Below, in pieces: positions 1-4,112 of a stretch of 4,112 nucleotides of DNA. The position numbers and the translations under genes were made by a program. This DNA is from Escherichia coli (GTDB lineage: Bacteria; Pseudomonadota; Gammaproteobacteria; Enterobacterales; Enterobacteriaceae), in the NCBI RefSeq assembly GCF_036507355.1, contig NZ_AP027884.1; one strand, given 5' to 3'. Within the stretch, counting starts at the first letter, position 1. Each line of letters begins with the position of its first letter. The notes beneath the pieces are model-generated. The model saw nothing but the letters and a program-made list of their open reading frames with translations. It was not told where the DNA came from and searched no databases.

Positions 1-104
1 TAATGAGAGCAGAGATAGCGCTGATGTCCGGCAGTGCTTTTGCCGTTACGCACCACGCCTTCAGTAGCGTAGCAGGAAGGACATCTGATGGAAATGGAAG
101 CCAC
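1..104 (-). CDS. insA: IS1 InsA, 5' portion (GTG start at 104; frame runs off the window start and resumes at 4112)
   Basis: Reverse-strand translation [34 protein letters not shown] matches the InsA N-terminus (MASVSISCPSCSATDGVV...) including the CxxC zinc-finger cysteines. Confidence 0.85.
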
Positions 105-136
105 GCAAGCACCTTAAAATCACCATTATACACTAA

Positions 137-159
137 ATCAGCAAGTTGGCAGCATTACC
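137..159. repeat. IS1 terminal inverted repeat (IRL)
   Basis: Reverse complement begins GGTAATGCTGCCAACTT, the canonical IS1 terminus. Confidence 0.85.
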
Positions 160-294
160 CGCGAGGTGACCAATCGGGTTCCTCATGGGAATAAAAACTG
201 CTGCAGTTGGCCCAGTGCCACGGAGAATCAGTTAGGCAATGGAAGGGTAATAAATAGAACTGACTGCCCTTATTCACTTGAGGTTTATCGGGAG

Positions 295-317
295 GCCCGC
301 TATTAGCGGGCTTTTCT
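295..317 (+). terminator. Putative rho-independent terminator (GCCCGC-tatta-GCGGGC followed by TTTTCT)
   Basis: 6-bp GC-rich perfect stem, 5-nt loop, T-rich tail on the plus strand; lies between the IS1 end and the 3' end of the convergent Wzz-like gene. Confidence 0.5.
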
Positions 318-369
318 GCATCTGGCGTGTAACGGATGTTGCTAGAATACGGTTATTAATCGTTACAGG

Positions 370-1038
370 CTAATAAAAAGACCTGTTTAACTTATTTTTA
401 TATTCAAGTATAGATCTTTTTATTATATGATACGAGGAGGAAAAGATAACGGCTATAATTAACGTTAGAGCCATAATTAAAGCTGGTTTATACTTTTTAT
501 TCACTATTTCATTATTTATTGAAATGAAGTTTTTTTCTCCGGTGGTGTTTATTTTTGTTAATAATGCAACTTTTGCATATGTTTCAGTGCCATTTATATA
601 GTTGCTGTCCTGGTTGTTAACTATGCTTTTATAAGTTTTATAATCTTGGATGTACCAGTCATCAATAGCTTTATGGATAGCGTTTACTTCAGCGGTAATC
701 AGTGGTTTGTAACGGTCATCACCAGCCCATGACAGGATTATTTTTTTTCCTTTTTCATCTATATTTGATGTTATAGACTTGCTTTTATTGTTTATAATTG
801 ATTGTATGATATTCGCTTTACAATAAAAGTCAGACCCACAGTTAATAATCATACTTGGTGAATTAGCGATCATATTTAATTCGTACTTTATATTTATTTT
901 GTTTTTGTTTATCAGTAAGAAAATAGATGACAAAATCAATGAGAAAACAACAAACAAAATAATACTCACGATTTTTTTCTTAAGAAAGAGAAATAACTCG
1001 ATGAAATCAATATCAGGTGAATTGTTTTCCATTTTCAT
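370..1038 (-). CDS. Short Wzz/Cld-like polysaccharide co-polymerase family protein (222 aa, bitopic membrane protein: N-terminal TM, about 140-aa periplasmic domain, C-terminal TM)
   Basis: A 669-nt ORF in roughly 25% GC DNA, where stop codons are frequent, is very unlikely by chance. The N-terminus MKMENNSPDIDFIELFLFLKKKIVSIILFVV parallels the Wzz motif M..ENN...IDLI(D/E)LL.QLW.GK..II followed by a TM helix. The C-terminus KPALIMALTLIIAVIF plus short basic tail parallels the Wzz C-terminal P-rich/TM segment. Hydrophobic stretches at about residues 23-43 and 186-206. Confidence 0.55.
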   Translation of the reverse strand: MKMENNSPDIDFIELFLFLKKKIVSIILFVVFSLILSSIFLLINKNKINIKYELNMIANSPSMIINCGSDFYCKANIIQSIINNKSKSITSNIDEKGKKIILSWAGDDRYKPLITAEVNAIHKAIDDWYIQDYKTYKSIVNNQDSNYINGTETYAKVALLTKINTTGEKNFISINNEIVNKKYKPALIMALTLIIAVIFSSSYHIIKRSILEYKNKLNRSFY

Positions 1039-1130
1039 ATACCAACAATAGTTATTAAATTATAGCTTAAATAAATAAATAAAATTAAAATAGCCGTGAT
1101 GAATATTTTCGCTGATTTAGTATATTTCAT
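1035..1130 (-). CDS. 31-aa hydrophobic micro-protein (MKYTKSAKIFITAILILFIYLSYNLITIVGI), predicted single TM; stop overlaps the Wzz-like start (ATGA)
   Basis: Hand translation of the minus strand: ATG at complement of 1128..1130; TGA stop shares 2 nt with the ATG of the 370..1038 ORF, the arrangement typical of translational coupling. Below the ORF-track size cutoff. Confidence 0.45.
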   Translation of the reverse strand: MKYTKSAKIFITAILILFIYLSYNLITIVGI

Positions 1131-1282
1131 TTTAAAATCCAATCAAATAAAAACATTTTACCTATTATTTAGGTGTGAGAAAACTCCTAAAATCAATTTT
1201 TTTTTGTTTGTTTTTTGTTCGGTTATGTCTATGGAGAGAGTTGTTATCAGCCTGTATCCTTTCCACATATTTTAAGATCTTC

Positions 1283-1311
1283 TTGAGATCCTTGTGTTAC
1301 AGCCGTAATCT
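1283..1311 (+). promoter_or_regulatory. ColE1-type RNA II (primer) promoter: -35 TTGAGA (1283..1288), 17-bp spacer, -10 TAATCT (1306..1311)
   Basis: Position and sequence correspond to the pMB1/ColE1 RNA II promoter (ttcttgagatcc...gcgtaatct). Confidence 0.75.
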
Positions 1312-1318
1312 CTTGGTC

Positions 1319-1426
1319 TGAAAACGAAAAAACCACCCGGCAAGGTGGTTTTTCGAAGGTTCATTAAACCGGCAAGTTTATGAACCGTGGTAACAGGGTG
1401 TACAAGACCGCTGCCACCAAAATCGT
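1319..1426 (-). ncRNA. RNAI: RNA I antisense copy-number control RNA (about 108 nt)
   Basis: Complementary to the 5' region of RNA II. The 5' end is placed by alignment to the pMB1 RNA I start (ACAGUAUUUGG, here ACGAUUUUGG). The 3' stem-loop ACCACC-loop-GGTGG plus U-tract lies at 1325..1350. Confidence 0.8.
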
Positions 1427-1860
1427 CCTTCTAGTTTAGCCGCAGTCTGGCTCTAACTTCAAGAACTCTGCATCAGTAATCTCTTGTACACCCTCTACCA
1501 ATGGCTACCGCCAATGGCGATTTGTCGTGCCTTTTCGGGTTGGACTCAAGACGATAGTTACCGAAAAGAGCGTGGTAGTCGGACTGAACGGGGGGTTCGT
1601 GCATACAGTCCAGCTTGGAGCGAACTGCCTACCCGGAACTGAGTGTCAGGCGTGGAATGAGACAAACGCGGCCATAACAGCGGAATGACACCGGTAAACC
1701 GAAAGGCAGGAACAGGAGAGCGCACGAGGGAGCCACCAGGGGGAAACGCCTGGTATCTTTATAGTCCTGTCGGGTTTCGCCACCACTGATTTGAGCGTCA
1801 GATTTCGTGATGCTTGTCAGGGGGGCGGAGCCTATGGAAAAACGGCAAGCCCGCATCCTT
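1320..1860 (+). ncRNA. RNAII: RNA II pre-primer of a ColE1-type origin (approximate ends; RNA/DNA switch estimated near 1845..1865)
   Basis: Extended similarity to the pMB1/ColE1 ori, e.g. ggactcaagacgatagttaccg, ctgaacggggggttcgtgca, cagcttggagcgaac, ggaacaggagagcgcacgagggagc, cagggggaaacgcctggtatctttatagtcctgtcgggtttcgccac, caggggggcggagcctatggaaaaacg. Confidence 0.85.
1433..1462 (-). promoter_or_regulatory. RNA I promoter: -35 TTGAAG (complement of 1457..1462), -10 CTAAACT (complement of 1433..1439)
   Basis: Same layout as the pMB1 RNA I promoter (TTGAAG ... 17 bp ... CTACACT). Confidence 0.7.
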
Positions 1861-2062
1861 TTTCCGGCCTTTCTTGACCTCCGCTCCATCTCGTTACCTC
1901 GTCATTCGTGAGCCGGTACCGCTCGCCGCAGCCGAACGACCGAGCGTAGCGAGTCAGTGAGCGAGGAAGCGGAATATCTCTTGTATTGCATCTTCTGCTG
2001 ACGCGCCGGTGCCTCCTTTTTCTCCTGCCACATGAAGCACTTTCATAAAGTGTTACTCCACC

Positions 2063-2130
2063 GTAGCATATTGAGCCCATATACACTCCGCTAGCGCAAC
2101 GTGACTGGTTCAGGGCTGCGCCCCGAAACC
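2063..2130. other. ColE1/pMB1-type bom/oriT-like (nic region) sequence
   Basis: catatacactccgctagcgcaacgtgactggttcagggctgcgccccga parallels the pBR322 bom region ccagtatacactccgctatcgctacgtgactgggtcatggctgcgccccga, which lies between ori and rop in pMB1 derivatives. Confidence 0.6.
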
Positions 2131-2164
2131 CTCTAACAACCTCTCAGCTACTGGATATCACCCC

Positions 2165-2314
2165 ATGCCATCTGAATATGATGAACAACTGGATTCGACT
2201 GATACGCAGCTTCCCGGCGAATATGACCTTTTTGATTTAATGGCGCAGGTTACTGAAGAGAACCTGCACGCCCCGGTGGATTTTGGGCCGCCTGTCGGCC
2301 GTGAAGTGTTATAG
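2165..2314 (+). CDS. Hypothetical small acidic protein, 49 aa (MPSEYDEQLDSTDTQLPGEYDLFDLMAQVTEENLHAPVDFGPPVGREVL)
   Basis: Hand-translated ORF immediately downstream of the bom-like segment; no clear Shine-Dalgarno; no recognised family. Could be a chance ORF. Confidence 0.25.
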   Translation: MPSEYDEQLDSTDTQLPGEYDLFDLMAQVTEENLHAPVDFGPPVGREVL

Positions 2315-2338
2315 CTTTTTCGCTTATCCGCGTACGTG

Positions 2339-2413
2339 GTAATACGCCGGTATTACATCTTATTTCTTTATTTTCATGTAATTACAGGTGGTTGTAATAC
2401 GTTGCGTATTACA
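2339..2413. promoter_or_regulatory. Cluster of three palindromic operator-like sites sharing a GTAATAC/TGTAAT half-site
   Basis: GTAATAC-gccg-GTATTAC (2339..2356); TGTAATTACA (2377..2386); TGTAATACG-ttg-CGTATTACA (2393..2413). All arms are perfect. Confidence 0.5.
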
Positions 2414-2580
2414 TAAATAAACGGGGACTTCAGTTTTTACCTTTTAATTCATGCAATTGCGATGAAAATCGCGGTTGCGTATGGTGTATGACCATTTAAG
2501 GGATAATGTAACCTGACTTTTAAAGAATGAATCTATCTTTGGTAGCGCATGAGATCGATAAAAAGCGTTCCACATCAGGC

Positions 2581-2600
2581 GGTTCATGGATACATGAACC
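2581..2600. promoter_or_regulatory. Perfect palindrome GGTTCATG-gata-CATGAACC
   Basis: 8-bp perfect inverted arms with 4-bp spacer, immediately upstream of the phased direct-repeat array. Confidence 0.45.
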
Positions 2601-2603
2601 GGA

Positions 2604-2684
2604 AAGGACAAAAATAAGACAATTGTAGGACATTTTTTGCGTTTTACTCTTATTTTTGGACTATTATGAGACAAATGTAAGACA
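2604..2684 (+). repeat. Iteron/operator-like array: two sets of three 7-bp direct repeats (consensus T-R-R-GACA) at exact 11-bp spacing, separated by a 30-bp gap
   Basis: AAGGACA 2604, TAAGACA 2615, TAGGACA 2626; TTGGACT 2656, TGAGACA 2667, TAAGACA 2678. Spacing of about one helical turn; the array ends 14 bp before the ATG at 2698. Confidence 0.6.
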
Positions 2685-2697
2685 TTATGGGCGGTAT

Positions 2698-3066
2698 ATG
2701 GCGAATTTTAACCCTGGTCCAAGAACAGCCATTGCAGCTGTCAGGGATTCCAAGAACGATATAGAAACCTGGAAGAAAAATGGTATCCGTAGGGAAGAGA
2801 TTGTGACTGTACTGAATAAACGTTACGGCCTGAATATCTCACTGGTTGCGTTTGATAAGGCTCTTTACAGATTGAGAAAAAGTACAGATGAACCGTCTCT
2901 TGCTGATGTGGATTCTGTGTCTGCTGCAGAAACGAATTTCTCTGAAGCCAGTGGGCCTGAAAATGGTTTTTTTCTGTCCGGGAATGACTTCATGCGAGCA
3001 GAAGAAGAATCTCAAAGAATGGTTGAGTCATTCAGAGATAGCCTTGGCAGGAAGAAAGGATTCTGA
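2698..3066 (+). CDS. Hypothetical protein, 122 aa from ATG 2698 (ORF track extends to a TTG at 2656); basic N-terminal half, acidic C-terminal tail; possible DNA-binding protein
   Basis: Open frame of 120+ codons directly downstream of the phased repeats; N-terminal segment NGIRREEIVTVLNKRYGLNISLVAFDKALYRLRK is HTH-like by eye; no family recognised with confidence. Confidence 0.5.
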   Translation: MANFNPGPRTAIAAVRDSKNDIETWKKNGIRREEIVTVLNKRYGLNISLVAFDKALYRLRKSTDEPSLADVDSVSAAETNFSEASGPENGFFLSGNDFMRAEEESQRMVESFRDSLGRKKGF

Positions 3067-3272
3067 TTTTGAATTCTAAGTAGTGAAATAGTGGATCCTC
3101 TACTCGAAATTGTCGGATACCTGCAATTACCTACCGTGCCTTACGGCTTGGTCAATGCCTCACGGCCACGCAATAAATTGCGTCCCCGTTCACCGTTTTC
3201 GGATAAGAAGAACATCGGAAACAGGACTTACCCCGGCTGAATGGCGTGAATTTCCGCGCTATGCACTTGCGC

Positions 3273-3284
3273 GCATACTCATGC
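3273..3284. promoter_or_regulatory. Candidate ArgR-box-like palindrome (GCAT-actc-ATGC) in the Xer accessory region
   Basis: Palindrome centred about 109 bp upstream of the XerC arm, where cer-type sites carry an ArgR site; sequence only loosely resembles the ARG box consensus. Confidence 0.3.
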
Positions 3285-3386
3285 ATGCCGTAAAAACAGA
3301 GCCTGCGCGTTTCTGGCGGGTTTTCGGGTGGTTTGTTGCCTGTTTTACCGGTTTCCCGTCAGAAACGCCCTCAGCGCCTCTCAGGC

Positions 3387-3414
3387 GGTGCACGCAACGG
3401 ATGTTATGGTAAAT
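3387..3414 (+). other. Xer site-specific recombination site (cer/psi-like multimer resolution site): XerC arm GGTGCACGCAA, 6-bp central CGGATG, XerD arm TTATGGTAAAT
   Basis: XerD arm is identical to the cer XerD arm; XerC arm differs from psi (GGTGCGCGCAA) at one position; 11+6+11 layout. About 200 bp of potential accessory sequence lies upstream. Confidence 0.6.
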
Positions 3415-3432
3415 CCAGCTGATTGGCAGGTA

Positions 3433-3458
3433 CAAAAAAGCCCCGCAGGGCTTTTTTG
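3433..3458. terminator. Bidirectional rho-independent terminator (AAAAAA-GCCC-cgca-GGGC-TTTTTT)
   Basis: Stem flanked by an A-run upstream and a T-run downstream, between the Xer site and the IS1 right end. Confidence 0.6.
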
Positions 3459-3503
3459 CTATGAGTTAGCCATATTTTCGTGCGAATTTTTCATCGGAAT
3501 CGC

Positions 3504-3526
3504 GGTGATGACTCCAACTTACTGAT
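3504..3526. repeat. IS1 terminal inverted repeat (IRR)
   Basis: GGTGATGACTCCAACTTACTGAT, the canonical IS1 terminus. Confidence 0.85.
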
Positions 3527-3914
3527 AGTGTTTTATGTTCAGATAATGCCCGATGACTTTGTCATGCAGCTCCACCGATTTTGAAAACGACAGTGACTTC
3601 CGTCCCAGCCTTGCCAGATGTTGCCTCAGATTCAGGTTATGCCGCTCAATGCGCTGCGTATATCGCTTGCTGATAACGTGCAGTTCTCCCTTCAGGCGTG
3701 ATTCATAAAGCGGCCAGCCATCCGTCATCCATACCACGACCTCAAAGTCCGACAGCAGGCTCAGAAGACGCTCCAGTGTGGCCAGAGTGCGTTCACCGAA
3801 TACGTGCGCCACAACCGTCCTCCGAATCCTGTCATACGCGTAAAACAACCAGCGCTGGCGTGATTTAGCGCCGACGTAACCCCGCTGTTCGTCCATTTCA
3901 GCGCAGACAATCAC
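3519..3914 (-). CDS. insB: IS1 InsB (shown from first in-frame ATG; in IS1 the transposase is the InsAB' fusion made by -1 frameshift at the A6C motif, here complement of about 3959..3967)
   Basis: ORF-track protein [28 protein letters not shown]...HYLNIKHYQ matches IS1 InsB; the TTAAAAAAC slippery motif is present on the minus strand just upstream. Confidence 0.9.
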
Positions 3915-3940
3915 ATCACCGCCCGGTTGTATGCGCTAGG

Positions 3941-4112
3941 TTACCGACTGCGGCCTGAGTTTTTTAAGTGACGTAAAACCGTGTTGAGGCCAACGCCCAT
4001 AATGCGTGCACTGGCGCGACATCCGACGCCATTCATGGCCATATCAATGATTTTCTGGTGCGTACCGGGCTGAGAGGCGGTGTAAGTGAACTGTAGTTGC
4101 CATGTTTTACGG
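3941..4112 (-). CDS. insA: IS1 InsA, 3' portion (stop codon = complement of 3941..3943)
   Basis: The frame continues from the window start; 34 codons + 1 junction codon + 57 codons gives 91 aa plus stop, the InsA length. C-terminal sequence ...[16 protein letters not shown] is followed by TAA. Confidence 0.85.

What the first reader, a model, noticed from the sequence alone, without database searches (positions are those of the whole stretch)
1283..1990. ColE1-type replicon with RNA I/RNA II control and no rop gene
Promoters, the RNA I stem-loop region and the ori-proximal blocks are conserved with pMB1/ColE1. Translating both strands downstream of the bom-like segment gave no Rop-like 63-aa ORF. 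Absence of Rop typically raises copy number, which would amplify dosage of the AT-rich cargo genes.
Basis: partly seen in the sequence, partly recalled or inferred. Interest (0 to 1): 0.25.

Follow-up and report, generated by a model that had tools for sequence, protein, structure and literature searches.

The report
Ordinary ColE1-type plasmid origin without rop
This is a standard ColE1-type plasmid replication origin, controlled by the antisense RNA I / RNA II pair and truly lacking the optional Rop protein, which is ordinary because about four in ten such enterobacterial plasmids lack rop.

Summary
Window 1283-1990 is the core of a ColE1-type replicon.
- RNA I matches Rfam RF00106 at 101.6 bits (E 3e-19) on the minus strand, 1324-1425. 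It folds into three hairpins, and covariation supports that fold.
- Window 1276-2142 aligns to ColE1. The RNA II promoter hexamers are identical, the ori-proximal block is 90% identical, and the primosome assembly site matches at 55 of 57 bases.
- No Rop homolog exists in any frame, including across the circular junction. The same method recovers Rop from ColE1 at E 1.4e-35.

The window is a complete 4.1 kb E. coli plasmid. Outside its IS1 it is identical to the deposited plasmid p713Rt_4. All nine backbone relatives I checked also lack rop.

Homology to ColE1, and to three plasmids with a similar ori (one carrying rop, two carrying mob genes), stops at 2141-2144, the end of oriT. Homology to ColE1 resumes at a cer-like site. 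So the usual rop/mob slot holds a different module: a MazE-tail micro-ORF and a StbA-like gene.

The literature reports rop in only 59% of enterobacterial ColE1-like plasmids, and p15A vectors (which to my knowledge carry no rop) run at lower copy than ColE1 with Rop. Verdict: already known, low interest.

The parts
1283..1311 (+). RNA II (preprimer) promoter: -35 TTGAGA at 1283-1288, 17-bp spacer, -10 TAATCT at 1306-1311
   Evidence: Both hexamers are invariant in the alignment to ColE1's promoter region. The generic sigma-70 consensus scan did not call it, so the identification rests on homology.
1320..1842 (+). RNA II preprimer, about 523 nt; both ends are inferred by alignment to ColE1 (start about 1319-1320, RNase H / RNA-DNA switch in the A-run 1838-1842)
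   Evidence: Aligns to ColE1 642-1197 with 391 of 556 columns identical. The 555-nt ColE1 RNA II length is from established knowledge. A rom-less relative in the literature has a predicted 521-nt RNA II (PMC5935869).
1320..1426 (-). RNA I, the antisense copy-number repressor, with three hairpins; loops CUUGUAC, UGCCG and UGCC
   Evidence: Rfam RF00106 at 101.6 bits, E 3e-19, 1324-1425. Fold z = -4.8. Nine compensatory pair changes against ColE1. Covariation across 7 variants: 88.8% of cells paired, 0 of 500 shuffles reach the score.
1433..1462 (-). RNA I promoter: -35 TTGAAG (1462-1457), -10 TAAACT (1438-1433)
   Evidence: 23 of 30 columns identical to the ColE1 RNA I promoter region. Not called by the consensus scan.
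1590..1595 (+). G6 run in RNA II (GAACGGGGGGTTCG), about 250 nt upstream of ori
   Evidence: Lies within a block that is 81% identical to ColE1. Its role in forming the persistent RNA-DNA hybrid is established knowledge for ColE1 and is inferred here.
1820..1843 (+). ori: second G6 run (1820-1825) followed by GGAGCCTATGGAAAAAC, with the RNA-DNA switch in the A-run 1838-1842
   Evidence: Lies within the 90%-identical ori-proximal block. ColE1's +555 position falls in the aligned A-run.
1919..1975 (+). Primosome assembly site (pas / n' / ssiA) block for lagging-strand priming
   Evidence: 55 of 57 bases identical to ColE1 1309-1365. Function is inferred from ColE1.
2080..2142 (+). bom / oriT block. 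There is no relaxase gene in the window, so mobilisation would need mob functions in trans.
   Evidence: 54 of 63 identical to ColE1 1470-1532. Homology to ColE1, L022, L023 and L024 all ends at 2141-2144. No Mob family appears in the six-frame Pfam scan.
2165..2314 (+). 49-aa ORF lying where rop sits in ColE1; it resembles only the C-terminal toxin-binding tail of MazE-type antitoxins
   Evidence: NCBIfam MazE profile positions 53-81 of 82, E 0.007. PDB 7d2n_E E 0.002, also 1mvf_D and 1ub4_C. Conserved in the backbone relatives. It is not Rop.
2698..3066 (+). 122-aa StbA-like protein (N-terminal HTH), preceded by GTAATAC palindromes at 2339-2357 and 2393-2413
   Evidence: PF28167 StbA-like in the precomputed annotation. 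NCBIfam StbA_2 at 1.7e-9, below its curated cutoff. Repeats. The gene is absent from L003, so it is dispensable for replication.
3321..3414 (+). cer-like multimer resolution site; core is XerC arm GGTGCACGCAA (3387-3397), spacer CGGATG, XerD arm TTATGGTAAAT (3404-3414)
   Evidence: blastn to ColE1 3844-3941 and alignment. The backbone shared with relatives ends at 3414/3415. The arm assignment comes from my own knowledge of the ColE1 cer core.
3504..4112 (-). IS1, first part. The element continues at 1-159 (768 bp in all) across the circular junction. The transposase frame carries a TAG at 3936-3938.
   Evidence: Pfam DDE_Tnp_IS1, HTH_Tnp_IS1 and Zn_ribbon_InsA hits span the junction. RefSeq marks the near-identical copy 'frameshifted; internal stop'.
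1..159 (-). IS1, second part (the InsA N-terminal end and the inverted repeat)
   Evidence: Zn_ribbon_InsA hit across the junction. The sequence is continuous with 4112.
370..1038 (-). AT-rich cargo gene: a 222-aa two-TM GNVR / Wzz-like protein of the polysaccharide co-polymerase type (GC 21-33% over about 300-1280)
   Evidence: Pfam GNVR 4.3e-9 and a weak Wzz N-terminal hit. Composition. About 97 near-identical proteins on small E. coli and Salmonella plasmids.

Best explanation
Window 1276-2142 is a working ColE1-type theta replicon. It is the only replication system of a complete 4.1 kb circular E. coli plasmid.

Inferred mechanism, by homology to ColE1:
1. RNA II is transcribed from the promoter at 1283-1311.
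2. About 520 nt downstream it forms a persistent hybrid with the template. The G-runs at 1590-1595 and 1820-1825 are the conserved elements for this.
3. RNase H cuts the hybrid in the A-run at 1838-1842, and DNA polymerase I extends the primer.
4. The pas block at 1919-1975 loads the primosome for the lagging strand.
5. Copy number is set by the roughly 107-nt antisense RNA I (1426 to 1320, minus strand). Its three hairpin loops kiss the complementary loops of nascent RNA II and divert its folding so that no primer forms.

The plasmid encodes no Rop, so this kissing step runs without the protein that stabilises it in ColE1 and pMB1. That is the normal state of this plasmid lineage, not a lesion. 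The segment between oriT (ending about 2142) and cer (3321-3414), which holds rop and the mob genes in ColE1, is here a different module: a MazE-tail micro-ORF and a StbA-like gene.

Shown here: the sequence and structure homology, the absence of Rop, and the absence of any Rep gene. Inferred: transcription start sites, processing, and the actual copy number.
For: - RNA I family match at 101.6 bits, three hairpins at z = -4.8, 9 compensatory pair changes against ColE1, and covariation across 7 natural variants with 0 of 500 shuffles reaching the score and slid controls at 34-50% paired against 88.8%.
- Colinear homology to ColE1 at E 9e-128, with identical RNA II promoter hexamers, a 90% identical ori block and a 55/57 pas block.
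- No Rep or Rop family in a six-frame Pfam scan of the circularised plasmid; the only hits are IS1 and GNVR. Controls are positive.
- The window is a whole plasmid. It covers 100% of complete circular records NZ_CP080073.1 (identical outside IS1) and NZ_CP139187.1.
- The backbone 1276-3414 recurs in complete plasmids as small as 2,573 bp. All nine relatives tested lack Rop, with best E >= 0.11.
- Homology breaks at 2141-2144 against ColE1 and three plasmids with a similar ori that carry rop (L023) or mob genes (L022, L024).
- Literature: rop is present in 59% of enterobacterial ColE1-like plasmids, and oriT and cer flank the exchangeable rop-relaxase region (PMC8683028). Rom-less natural members include pCS36-4CPA, pHW15 and pRK10 (PMC5935869).
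Against: - Nothing contradicts the identification.
- The generic sigma-70 scan called neither promoter. The hexamers are weak matches to consensus and were placed by homology only.
- Transcript ends, RNase H processing and Pol I dependence are inferred, not observed.
- A non-homologous functional analogue of Rop cannot be excluded by sequence search.
- Copy number was not measurable. No usable read-depth information was available.
Confidence: 0.95

Rival explanations
1. Rop function is present after all, supplied either by a protein on this plasmid too diverged or unrelated to be recognised, or in trans by a rop gene on a co-resident ColE1-like plasmid. Rop recognises the loop-loop complex rather than a specific sequence (established knowledge).
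For: E. coli hosts often carry several Col-type plasmids: 1,840 of 5,426 complete genomes have a match to this plasmid's non-IS1 part. A plasmid whose ori matched the window's at about 91% identity in the plasmid search does carry rop. Two small conserved ORFs lie in the usual rop slot.
Against: No PF01815 signal in any frame at E <= 10, with a positive control at 1.4e-35. The two backbone ORFs resemble a MazE tail and StbA, not a helical-hairpin RNA-binding protein. In the host of the identical plasmid, the two smaller co-resident plasmids (14 kb and 563 bp) have no Rop. Its two other plasmids were not fetched or checked.
Confidence: 0.12
2. The plasmid replicates through a plasmid-encoded initiator, as suggested by the 'replication initiation protein' CDS annotated inside the ori of related records, and the ColE1-like sequence is not the working control system.
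For: PGAP names a 41-52 aa CDS 'replication initiation protein' in L003, L004 and ColE1 itself. The equivalent 43-aa ORF is at window 1473-1604 on the minus strand.
Against: These ORFs lie inside RNA II and match no Pfam or NCBIfam family. The same name is attached to ColE1, whose replication needs no plasmid protein (established knowledge). In other relatives the same ORF is labelled only 'hypothetical'. No Rep family appears in the six-frame scan.
Confidence: 0.02
3. Absence of Rop makes this a high-copy plasmid that amplifies dosage of the Wzz-like cargo.
For: Rop reduces steady-state copy number 3- to 5-fold in ColE1/pMB1 vectors (PMC10407733). Presence or absence of Rop is one cause of the copy-number spread among ColE1-family vectors (PMC12307069).
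Against: p15A vectors, which to my knowledge carry no rop, are lower in copy than ColE1+Rop. 41% of natural enterobacterial ColE1-like plasmids lack rop. The RNA I region here is strongly diverged from ColE1 (53% identity, all loops different), so its kinetics cannot be read across from ColE1. No depth data could be obtained.
Confidence: 0.3

Closest known systems
ColE1 (NC_001371) and pMB1/pBR322-type replicons
   Same: Colinear layout: RNA II promoter, RNA I, ori, pas, bom/oriT. The RNA II promoter hexamers are identical, the ori block is 90% identical and the pas block matches at 55/57. RNA I has three hairpins, and a cer-like Xer site is present.
   Different: No rop and no mob genes. The RNA I region is only 53% identical and all three loops differ, so incompatibility specificity is presumably different. 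RNA II is about 523 nt instead of 555. The cer core has a 6-bp spacer where ColE1 has 8 bp.
E. coli plasmid p713Rt_4 (NZ_CP080073.1), pCE35-5 (NZ_CP139187.1), and the backbone lineage typed rep_cluster_2358
   Same: p713Rt_4 is 100% identical over window 160-3503 and 99.6% overall. pCE35-5 has the same length (4112 bp) and is 97.5% identical. Relatives share the ori-oriT-MazE-tail-StbA-like-cer backbone and all lack rop.
   Different: Small differences inside IS1. Other lineage members carry different cargo (a toxin-antitoxin pair, DUF3800, an LTA synthase family gene, or almost none), and their RNA I regions are only 74-86% identical to the window's.
Natural rom/rop-less ColE1-like plasmids (pCS36-4CPA, pHW15, pRK10)
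   Same: ColE1-type RNA I / RNA II origin with ssi and mrs/cer elements and no rom gene. pCS36-4CPA has a predicted 521-nt RNA II (PMC5935869).
   Different: pCS36-4CPA carries mobABCD, whereas this plasmid has only oriT. I made no sequence comparison with these plasmids here.
p15A replicon
   Same: A ColE1-family RNA I / RNA II replicon that, to my knowledge, carries no rop gene in its vector form (for family membership and copy class).
   Different: It is a different incompatibility group, is used as a low-to-medium copy origin, and was not compared by sequence here.
pHS-2 of Shigella flexneri (small plasmid encoding Wzz-pHS-2)
   Same: A small (about 3 kb) plasmid whose cargo is an O-antigen chain-length regulator of the Wzz class (PMC12004945). 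The cargo here is a GNVR / Wzz-like two-TM protein.
   Different: The cargo here is only 222 aa and is below the NCBIfam WzzB and Pfam Wzz cutoffs. I made no direct comparison with Wzz-pHS-2, and its function is untested.

Membership tests
ColE1-type (RNA II-primed, RNA I-controlled) theta replicon | Antisense RNA I of about 100-110 nt with three stem-loops, overlapping the 5' end of the preprimer | tested here: met
   Rfam RF00106 at 101.6 bits against a gathering score of 47. MFE fold has three hairpins, z = -4.8. Covariation: 9 pairs change on both sides, 0 of 500 shuffles reach the score.
ColE1-type (RNA II-primed, RNA I-controlled) theta replicon | RNA II promoter about 500-560 bp upstream of the origin, reading toward it | tested here: met
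   TTGAGA, 17-bp spacer, TAATCT at 1283-1311, identical to the ColE1 hexamers, about 523 nt upstream of the aligned ori A-run. Placed by homology only; the consensus scan did not call it.
ColE1-type (RNA II-primed, RNA I-controlled) theta replicon | Conserved ori-proximal block with G-runs for hybrid formation and the RNase H / RNA-DNA switch site | tested here: met
   128 of 142 columns identical to ColE1 over 1701-1842. G6 runs at 1590-1595 and 1820-1825. A-run at 1838-1842 aligned to ColE1 +555.
ColE1-type (RNA II-primed, RNA I-controlled) theta replicon | Primosome assembly site (pas / ssiA) downstream of ori | tested here: met
   55 of 57 identical to ColE1 1309-1365.
ColE1-type (RNA II-primed, RNA I-controlled) theta replicon | No plasmid-encoded initiator protein | tested here: met
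   The six-frame Pfam scan of the circularised plasmid finds only IS1 and GNVR. A 2,573-bp relative consists of little more than the backbone. The short ORFs annotated 'replication initiation protein' have no family support.
ColE1-type (RNA II-primed, RNA I-controlled) theta replicon | Dependence on host RNase H and DNA polymerase I; replication continues without protein synthesis | not testable with these tools
   Requires polA/rnhA host tests or chloramphenicol amplification.
Rop/Rom (Pfam PF01815) | A small ORF of about 63 aa matching the Rop profile, in any frame | tested here: not met
   No PF01815 hit at E <= 10 in six frames including the junction. tblastn best E 0.43 and phmmer --max best E 0.88. 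Controls: 1.4e-35, 2.6e-40, 4.7e-20 for a 59%-identical Rop.
Rop/Rom (Pfam PF01815) | Gene located beyond bom/oriT, on the strand opposite to RNA II, as in ColE1 | tested here: not met
   ColE1 rop lies at 1612-1803 on the minus strand, about 80 bp beyond the end of homology. The equivalent window stretch holds a plus-strand 49-aa MazE-tail ORF.
ColE1-type bom/oriT with MOB-P (HEN) mobilisation | oriT/bom sequence block | tested here: met
   54 of 63 identical to ColE1 1470-1532. MOB-suite types the near-identical records as mobilizable.
ColE1-type bom/oriT with MOB-P (HEN) mobilisation | Relaxase (MbeA/MobA) and accessory mob genes on the plasmid | tested here: not met
   No Mob family in the six-frame Pfam scan. 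No relaxase typing for these records, unlike ColE1, L022 and L024.
cer / mrs Xer multimer-resolution site | XerC arm, short spacer and XerD arm, with upstream accessory sequence homologous to ColE1 cer | tested here: met
   Window 3321-3417 matches ColE1 3844-3941. The XerD arm TTATGGTAAAT is identical, the XerC arm matches at 8 of 11, and the spacer is 6 bp against 8 bp. Recombination activity is not testable.

The most novel reading that the evidence does not exclude
The segment between oriT and cer is a distinct accessory module that replaces rop and mob in this lineage. Its parts may have functions of their own. The 49-aa peptide keeps only the toxin-binding tail of a MazE-type antitoxin and could act as a free 'anti-addiction' decoy against MazF/PemK-type toxins of competing plasmids. 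The StbA-like DNA-binding protein, with its GTAATAC palindromes, could position or stabilise a multicopy ColE1 plasmid, or modulate its mobilisation. Neither role has been described for ColE1-type plasmids as far as I found.
Probability: 0.1. Interest if true: 0.5.

Novelty: already known. Interest (0 to 1): 0.08.

Why it matters
It matters little beyond correct annotation. The window is a complete small E. coli plasmid whose only replication system is a textbook ColE1-type origin, and lack of rop is common in this family.

Practical points:
- The short CDS named 'replication initiation protein' inside such origins is very probably an annotation artefact.
- Copy number should not be inferred from the absence of rop alone.
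- The oriT and cer boundaries mark where accessory modules are exchanged. This explains why rop presence is patchy among plasmids with near-identical origins.

Tried and rejected
- The generic sigma-70 promoter and terminator scan of 1200-3500 called neither the RNA II nor the RNA I promoter, nor the RNA I terminator. It is too strict for these natural hexamers, so I relied on alignment to ColE1.
- I tried to get a copy-number estimate from contig names. Only one metagenomic contig carried a cov_ value and there was no chromosomal baseline, so I abandoned this.
- A literature search for the cer core sequence returned only unrelated primer matches.
- A search for the MOB-suite cluster name rep_cluster_2358 found only surveillance papers with no biology.
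- I considered a Rep-protein replicon because of the 'replication initiation protein' annotations. I rejected it because these are 41-52 aa ORFs inside RNA II with no family support, and the same label is attached to ColE1 itself.
- I considered that IS1 might have disrupted rop. I rejected it because IS1 lies beyond cer in the cargo region, and relatives without IS1 also lack rop.
- I fetched NZ_CP080075 expecting a co-resident plasmid, but it was another strain's chromosome.
- The weak recurring 16-aa tblastn match to Rop (E 0.11-0.26) in relatives is noise.

Full report
WHAT THE WINDOW IS

The 4112-base window is a complete circular plasmid that was linearised inside an IS1 element.
- IS1 occupies 3504-4112 and continues at 1-159, 768 bp in all. 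Pfam hits to InsA and InsB run across the junction of a circularised copy.
- The window covers 100% of two complete circular E. coli plasmids: p713Rt_4 (NZ_CP080073.1, 4096 bp) and pCE35-5 (NZ_CP139187.1, 4112 bp).
- Outside IS1 (160-3503) it is 100% identical to p713Rt_4.

CHECKING THE OBSERVATION

RNA I is present and well supported.
- An Rfam scan finds RNA I (RF00106) at 1324-1425 on the minus strand, over the full model, at 101.6 bits and E 3.1e-19. The gathering score is 47. ColE1's own RNA I scores 73.8 bits on the same model.
- The predicted 107-nt transcript (1426 to 1320) folds into three hairpins at -41.6 kcal/mol, with z = -4.8 against shuffles.

The replicon is colinear with ColE1. 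I fetched ColE1 (NC_001371) as a reference. blastn aligns window 1276-2142 to ColE1 598-1531 at E 9e-128. The base-level alignment, scored by block, shows:
- RNA II promoter hexamers TTGAGA (1283-1288) and TAATCT (1306-1311), 17 bp apart: identical to ColE1.
- RNA I promoter region: 23 of 30 identical.
- G-run hairpin region: 81% identical.
- The 142 nt up to the origin: 90% identical.
- pas block (1919-1975): 55 of 57 identical.
- bom/oriT block (2080-2142): 54 of 63 identical.

ColE1's RNA II start aligns to window 1319-1320. ColE1 position +555 falls in the aligned A-run at 1838-1842, which gives an inferred RNA II of about 523 nt.

One correction is needed. The RNA I region is conserved as a fold, not as sequence. 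It is 53% identical to ColE1. Of the 36 model base pairs, 9 differ on both sides while staying paired, and all three loops differ: CUUGUAC, UGCCG and UGCC here against CUGCUGA, UGGUA and GUAG in ColE1.

I tested the three-hairpin structure on seven natural RNA I variants: the window, ColE1 and five backbone relatives. 88.8% of cells are paired, compared with 34-50% when partners are slid by one to three columns. Nine pairs change on both sides, and 0 of 500 shuffles reach the observed covariation score.

IS ROP REALLY ABSENT?

Yes, and the negative result is backed by controls.
- tblastn with the Rop sequence against the circularised window gives nothing better than E 0.43. phmmer --max against all stop-to-stop segments gives nothing better than E 0.88. 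My remembered Rop sequence matches the ColE1 record apart from its GTG start codon.
- A Pfam scan of all six frames, with stops masked and 300 bases of wrap-around, finds only IS1 and GNVR/Wzz. There is no PF01815 hit at E <= 10 and no Rep family.
- The same masked-frame method on ColE1 recovers Rop at 1.4e-35 and 121 bits.
- tblastn finds ColE1 Rop at 2.6e-40 and a Rop only 59% identical, in pEc673-5, at 4.7e-20. So diverged Rops would have been seen.

WHY ROP IS ABSENT: A MODULE DIFFERENCE, NOT A LESION

In ColE1 the order in the RNA II direction is ori, bom, rop (minus strand), then the mob genes. Homology between the window and ColE1 stops at 2142, about 80 bp short of ColE1's rop. It resumes at 3321-3417, which matches ColE1 3844-3941, the cer site. 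The cer-like core here reads XerC arm GGTGCACGCAA, spacer CGGATG, XerD arm TTATGGTAAAT. The arm assignment comes from my own knowledge of the ColE1 cer core.

Between these two points the window carries two ORFs.
- A 49-aa ORF at 2165-2314. Residues 18-48 align only to the C-terminal toxin-binding tail of MazE-type antitoxins.
- A 122-aa StbA-like gene at 2698-3066.

The stretch 1276-3414 is a conserved backbone found in many complete small plasmids with different cargo, the smallest being 2,573 bp. All nine relatives tested lack Rop, with best E >= 0.11. One of them (L003) also lacks 2503-3152, so the StbA-like gene is not needed for replication.

Three plasmids outside this lineage have an ori 88-93% identical to the window's.
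- L022 has mob genes directly after oriT and no rop.
- L024 has the same arrangement.
- L023 has rop.
In all three, homology to the window ends at 2141-2144.

This matches the published picture. rop occurs in 59% of enterobacterial ColE1-like plasmids, and oriT and cer are recombination points at the two ends of the rop-relaxase region (PMC8683028). Rom-less natural members have been described before: pCS36-4CPA, pHW15 and pRK10 (PMC5935869).

HOW IT MOST LIKELY WORKS

By homology to ColE1 (established knowledge, with steps inferred here):
1. RNA II starts at about 1320 and is elongated through the origin.
2. It forms a persistent hybrid with the template, using the conserved G-runs.
3. RNase H cuts it in the A-run at 1838-1842, and DNA polymerase I extends it.
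4. The pas block primes the lagging strand.
5. RNA I, made constitutively from the opposite strand, kisses nascent RNA II through its three loops and prevents primer formation. This gives negative feedback on copy number.

Without Rop the kissing complex is not protein-stabilised. No plasmid protein is needed for replication.

THE COPY-NUMBER INFERENCE

- Rop lowers copy number 3- to 5-fold within a given replicon (PMC10407733).
- p15A vectors, which to my knowledge carry no rop, are classed as lower in copy than ColE1+Rop in the same paper.
- Within this very backbone the RNA I region is hypervariable, 74-86% identical where the rest is 90-93%. Its kinetics therefore cannot be read across from ColE1.
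- Rop could also be supplied in trans. In the host of the identical plasmid, the two smaller co-resident plasmids have none, but I did not fetch that strain's two other plasmids.
- No read-depth information could be recovered.

THE CARGO

The AT-rich stretch (GC 21-33% over about 300-1280) encodes a 222-aa two-TM protein. It has a GNVR domain and a weak Wzz N-terminal match. The protein is widespread on small E. coli and Salmonella plasmids but is uncharacterised. A plasmid-borne Wzz on a small plasmid has a precedent in pHS-2 of Shigella flexneri (PMC12004945).

VERDICT

The feature is a known kind of replicon on a plasmid already deposited in public databases, and absence of rop is common in the family. 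Interest is low.

Noticed in passing
window 2165-2314 (+): A 49-aa ORF conserved across the backbone lineage. Residues 18-48 align only to the C-terminal toxin-binding tail of MazE-type antitoxins (PDB 7d2n_E E 0.002; NCBIfam MazE positions 53-81 of 82). The N-terminal AbrB-like DNA-binding half is missing, and no toxin gene is nearby. It may be a remnant cut at the oriT recombination point, or a free-standing toxin decoy.
   Followed up: partly
window 2330-3066 (+): A 122-aa StbA-like gene (PF28167; NCBIfam StbA_2 N-terminal HTH 1.7e-9). It is preceded by two GTAATAC-type palindromes (2339-2357, 2393-2413) and a 41-nt direct repeat (2606-2646 and 2658-2698), which are possible operator or binding sites. 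It is missing from relative L003, so it is dispensable for replication.
   Followed up: partly
window 2141-2144 and 3414/3415: Sharp homology breakpoints. ColE1, L022, L023 and L024 all lose similarity to the window at 2141-2144, the end of oriT. The backbone shared with the lineage relatives ends at 3414/3415 in seven of the nine relatives compared, at the last base of the XerD arm of the cer-like site. This is consistent with module exchange by recombination at oriT and cer.
   Followed up: yes
window 1320-1470, compared with L003, L006, L008-L010: The RNA I / promoter region is hypervariable (74-86% identity) inside a backbone that is otherwise 90-93% identical. L003 and L004 share hairpins 2 and 3 with the window but have a different hairpin 1. 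In four of five distinct variants, loops 2 and 3 carry the same core motif (TTGCCG here, TTGCTG, TCCCCA, and TTGGTAGC in ColE1), so the two loops seem to change in concert.
   Followed up: partly
window 3504-4112 and 1-159 (-): The IS1 copy has no 9-bp target-site duplication (flanks cggaatcgc and cgcgaggtg). It carries a TAG at 3936-3938 where, from my memory of the canonical IS1 sequence, there is a TCG serine codon in the InsAB' frame, so its transposase is probably inactive. insA starts with GTG. RefSeq marks the near-identical copy as 'frameshifted; internal stop'.
   Followed up: partly
L018 1-13227 (GCA_958327965.1, contig CATUBT010000057.1): The whole plasmid sequence (99.8-100% identical) sits between IS1 sequences and is joined to chromosomal genes (nrdHIEF, proVWX). 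This is either an IS1-mediated cointegrate in the chromosome or an assembly join through IS1.
   Followed up: partly
window 1473-1604 (-); L003 1995-2120; L004 22-147; ColE1 784-942: RefSeq/PGAP names a 41-52 aa CDS inside RNA II 'replication initiation protein'. It has no Pfam or NCBIfam family, is labelled only 'hypothetical' in other relatives, and the same label is attached to ColE1, which needs no plasmid initiator. It is very probably an annotation artefact.
   Followed up: yes
window 370-1142 (-): The AT-rich cargo is a 222-aa protein with a TM segment at each end, a GNVR domain and a weak Wzz N-terminal match. This is much shorter than typical Wzz proteins of about 325 aa. A 35-aa hydrophobic ORF lies just upstream of it, at 1035-1142. 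The same cargo occurs with a different downstream module (mob genes) in Enterobacter plasmid L022. Larger related plasmids (8.1-13.9 kb) carry a family 2 glycosyltransferase gene, and some also a gene annotated 'lipopolysaccharide biosynthesis protein'.
   Followed up: partly
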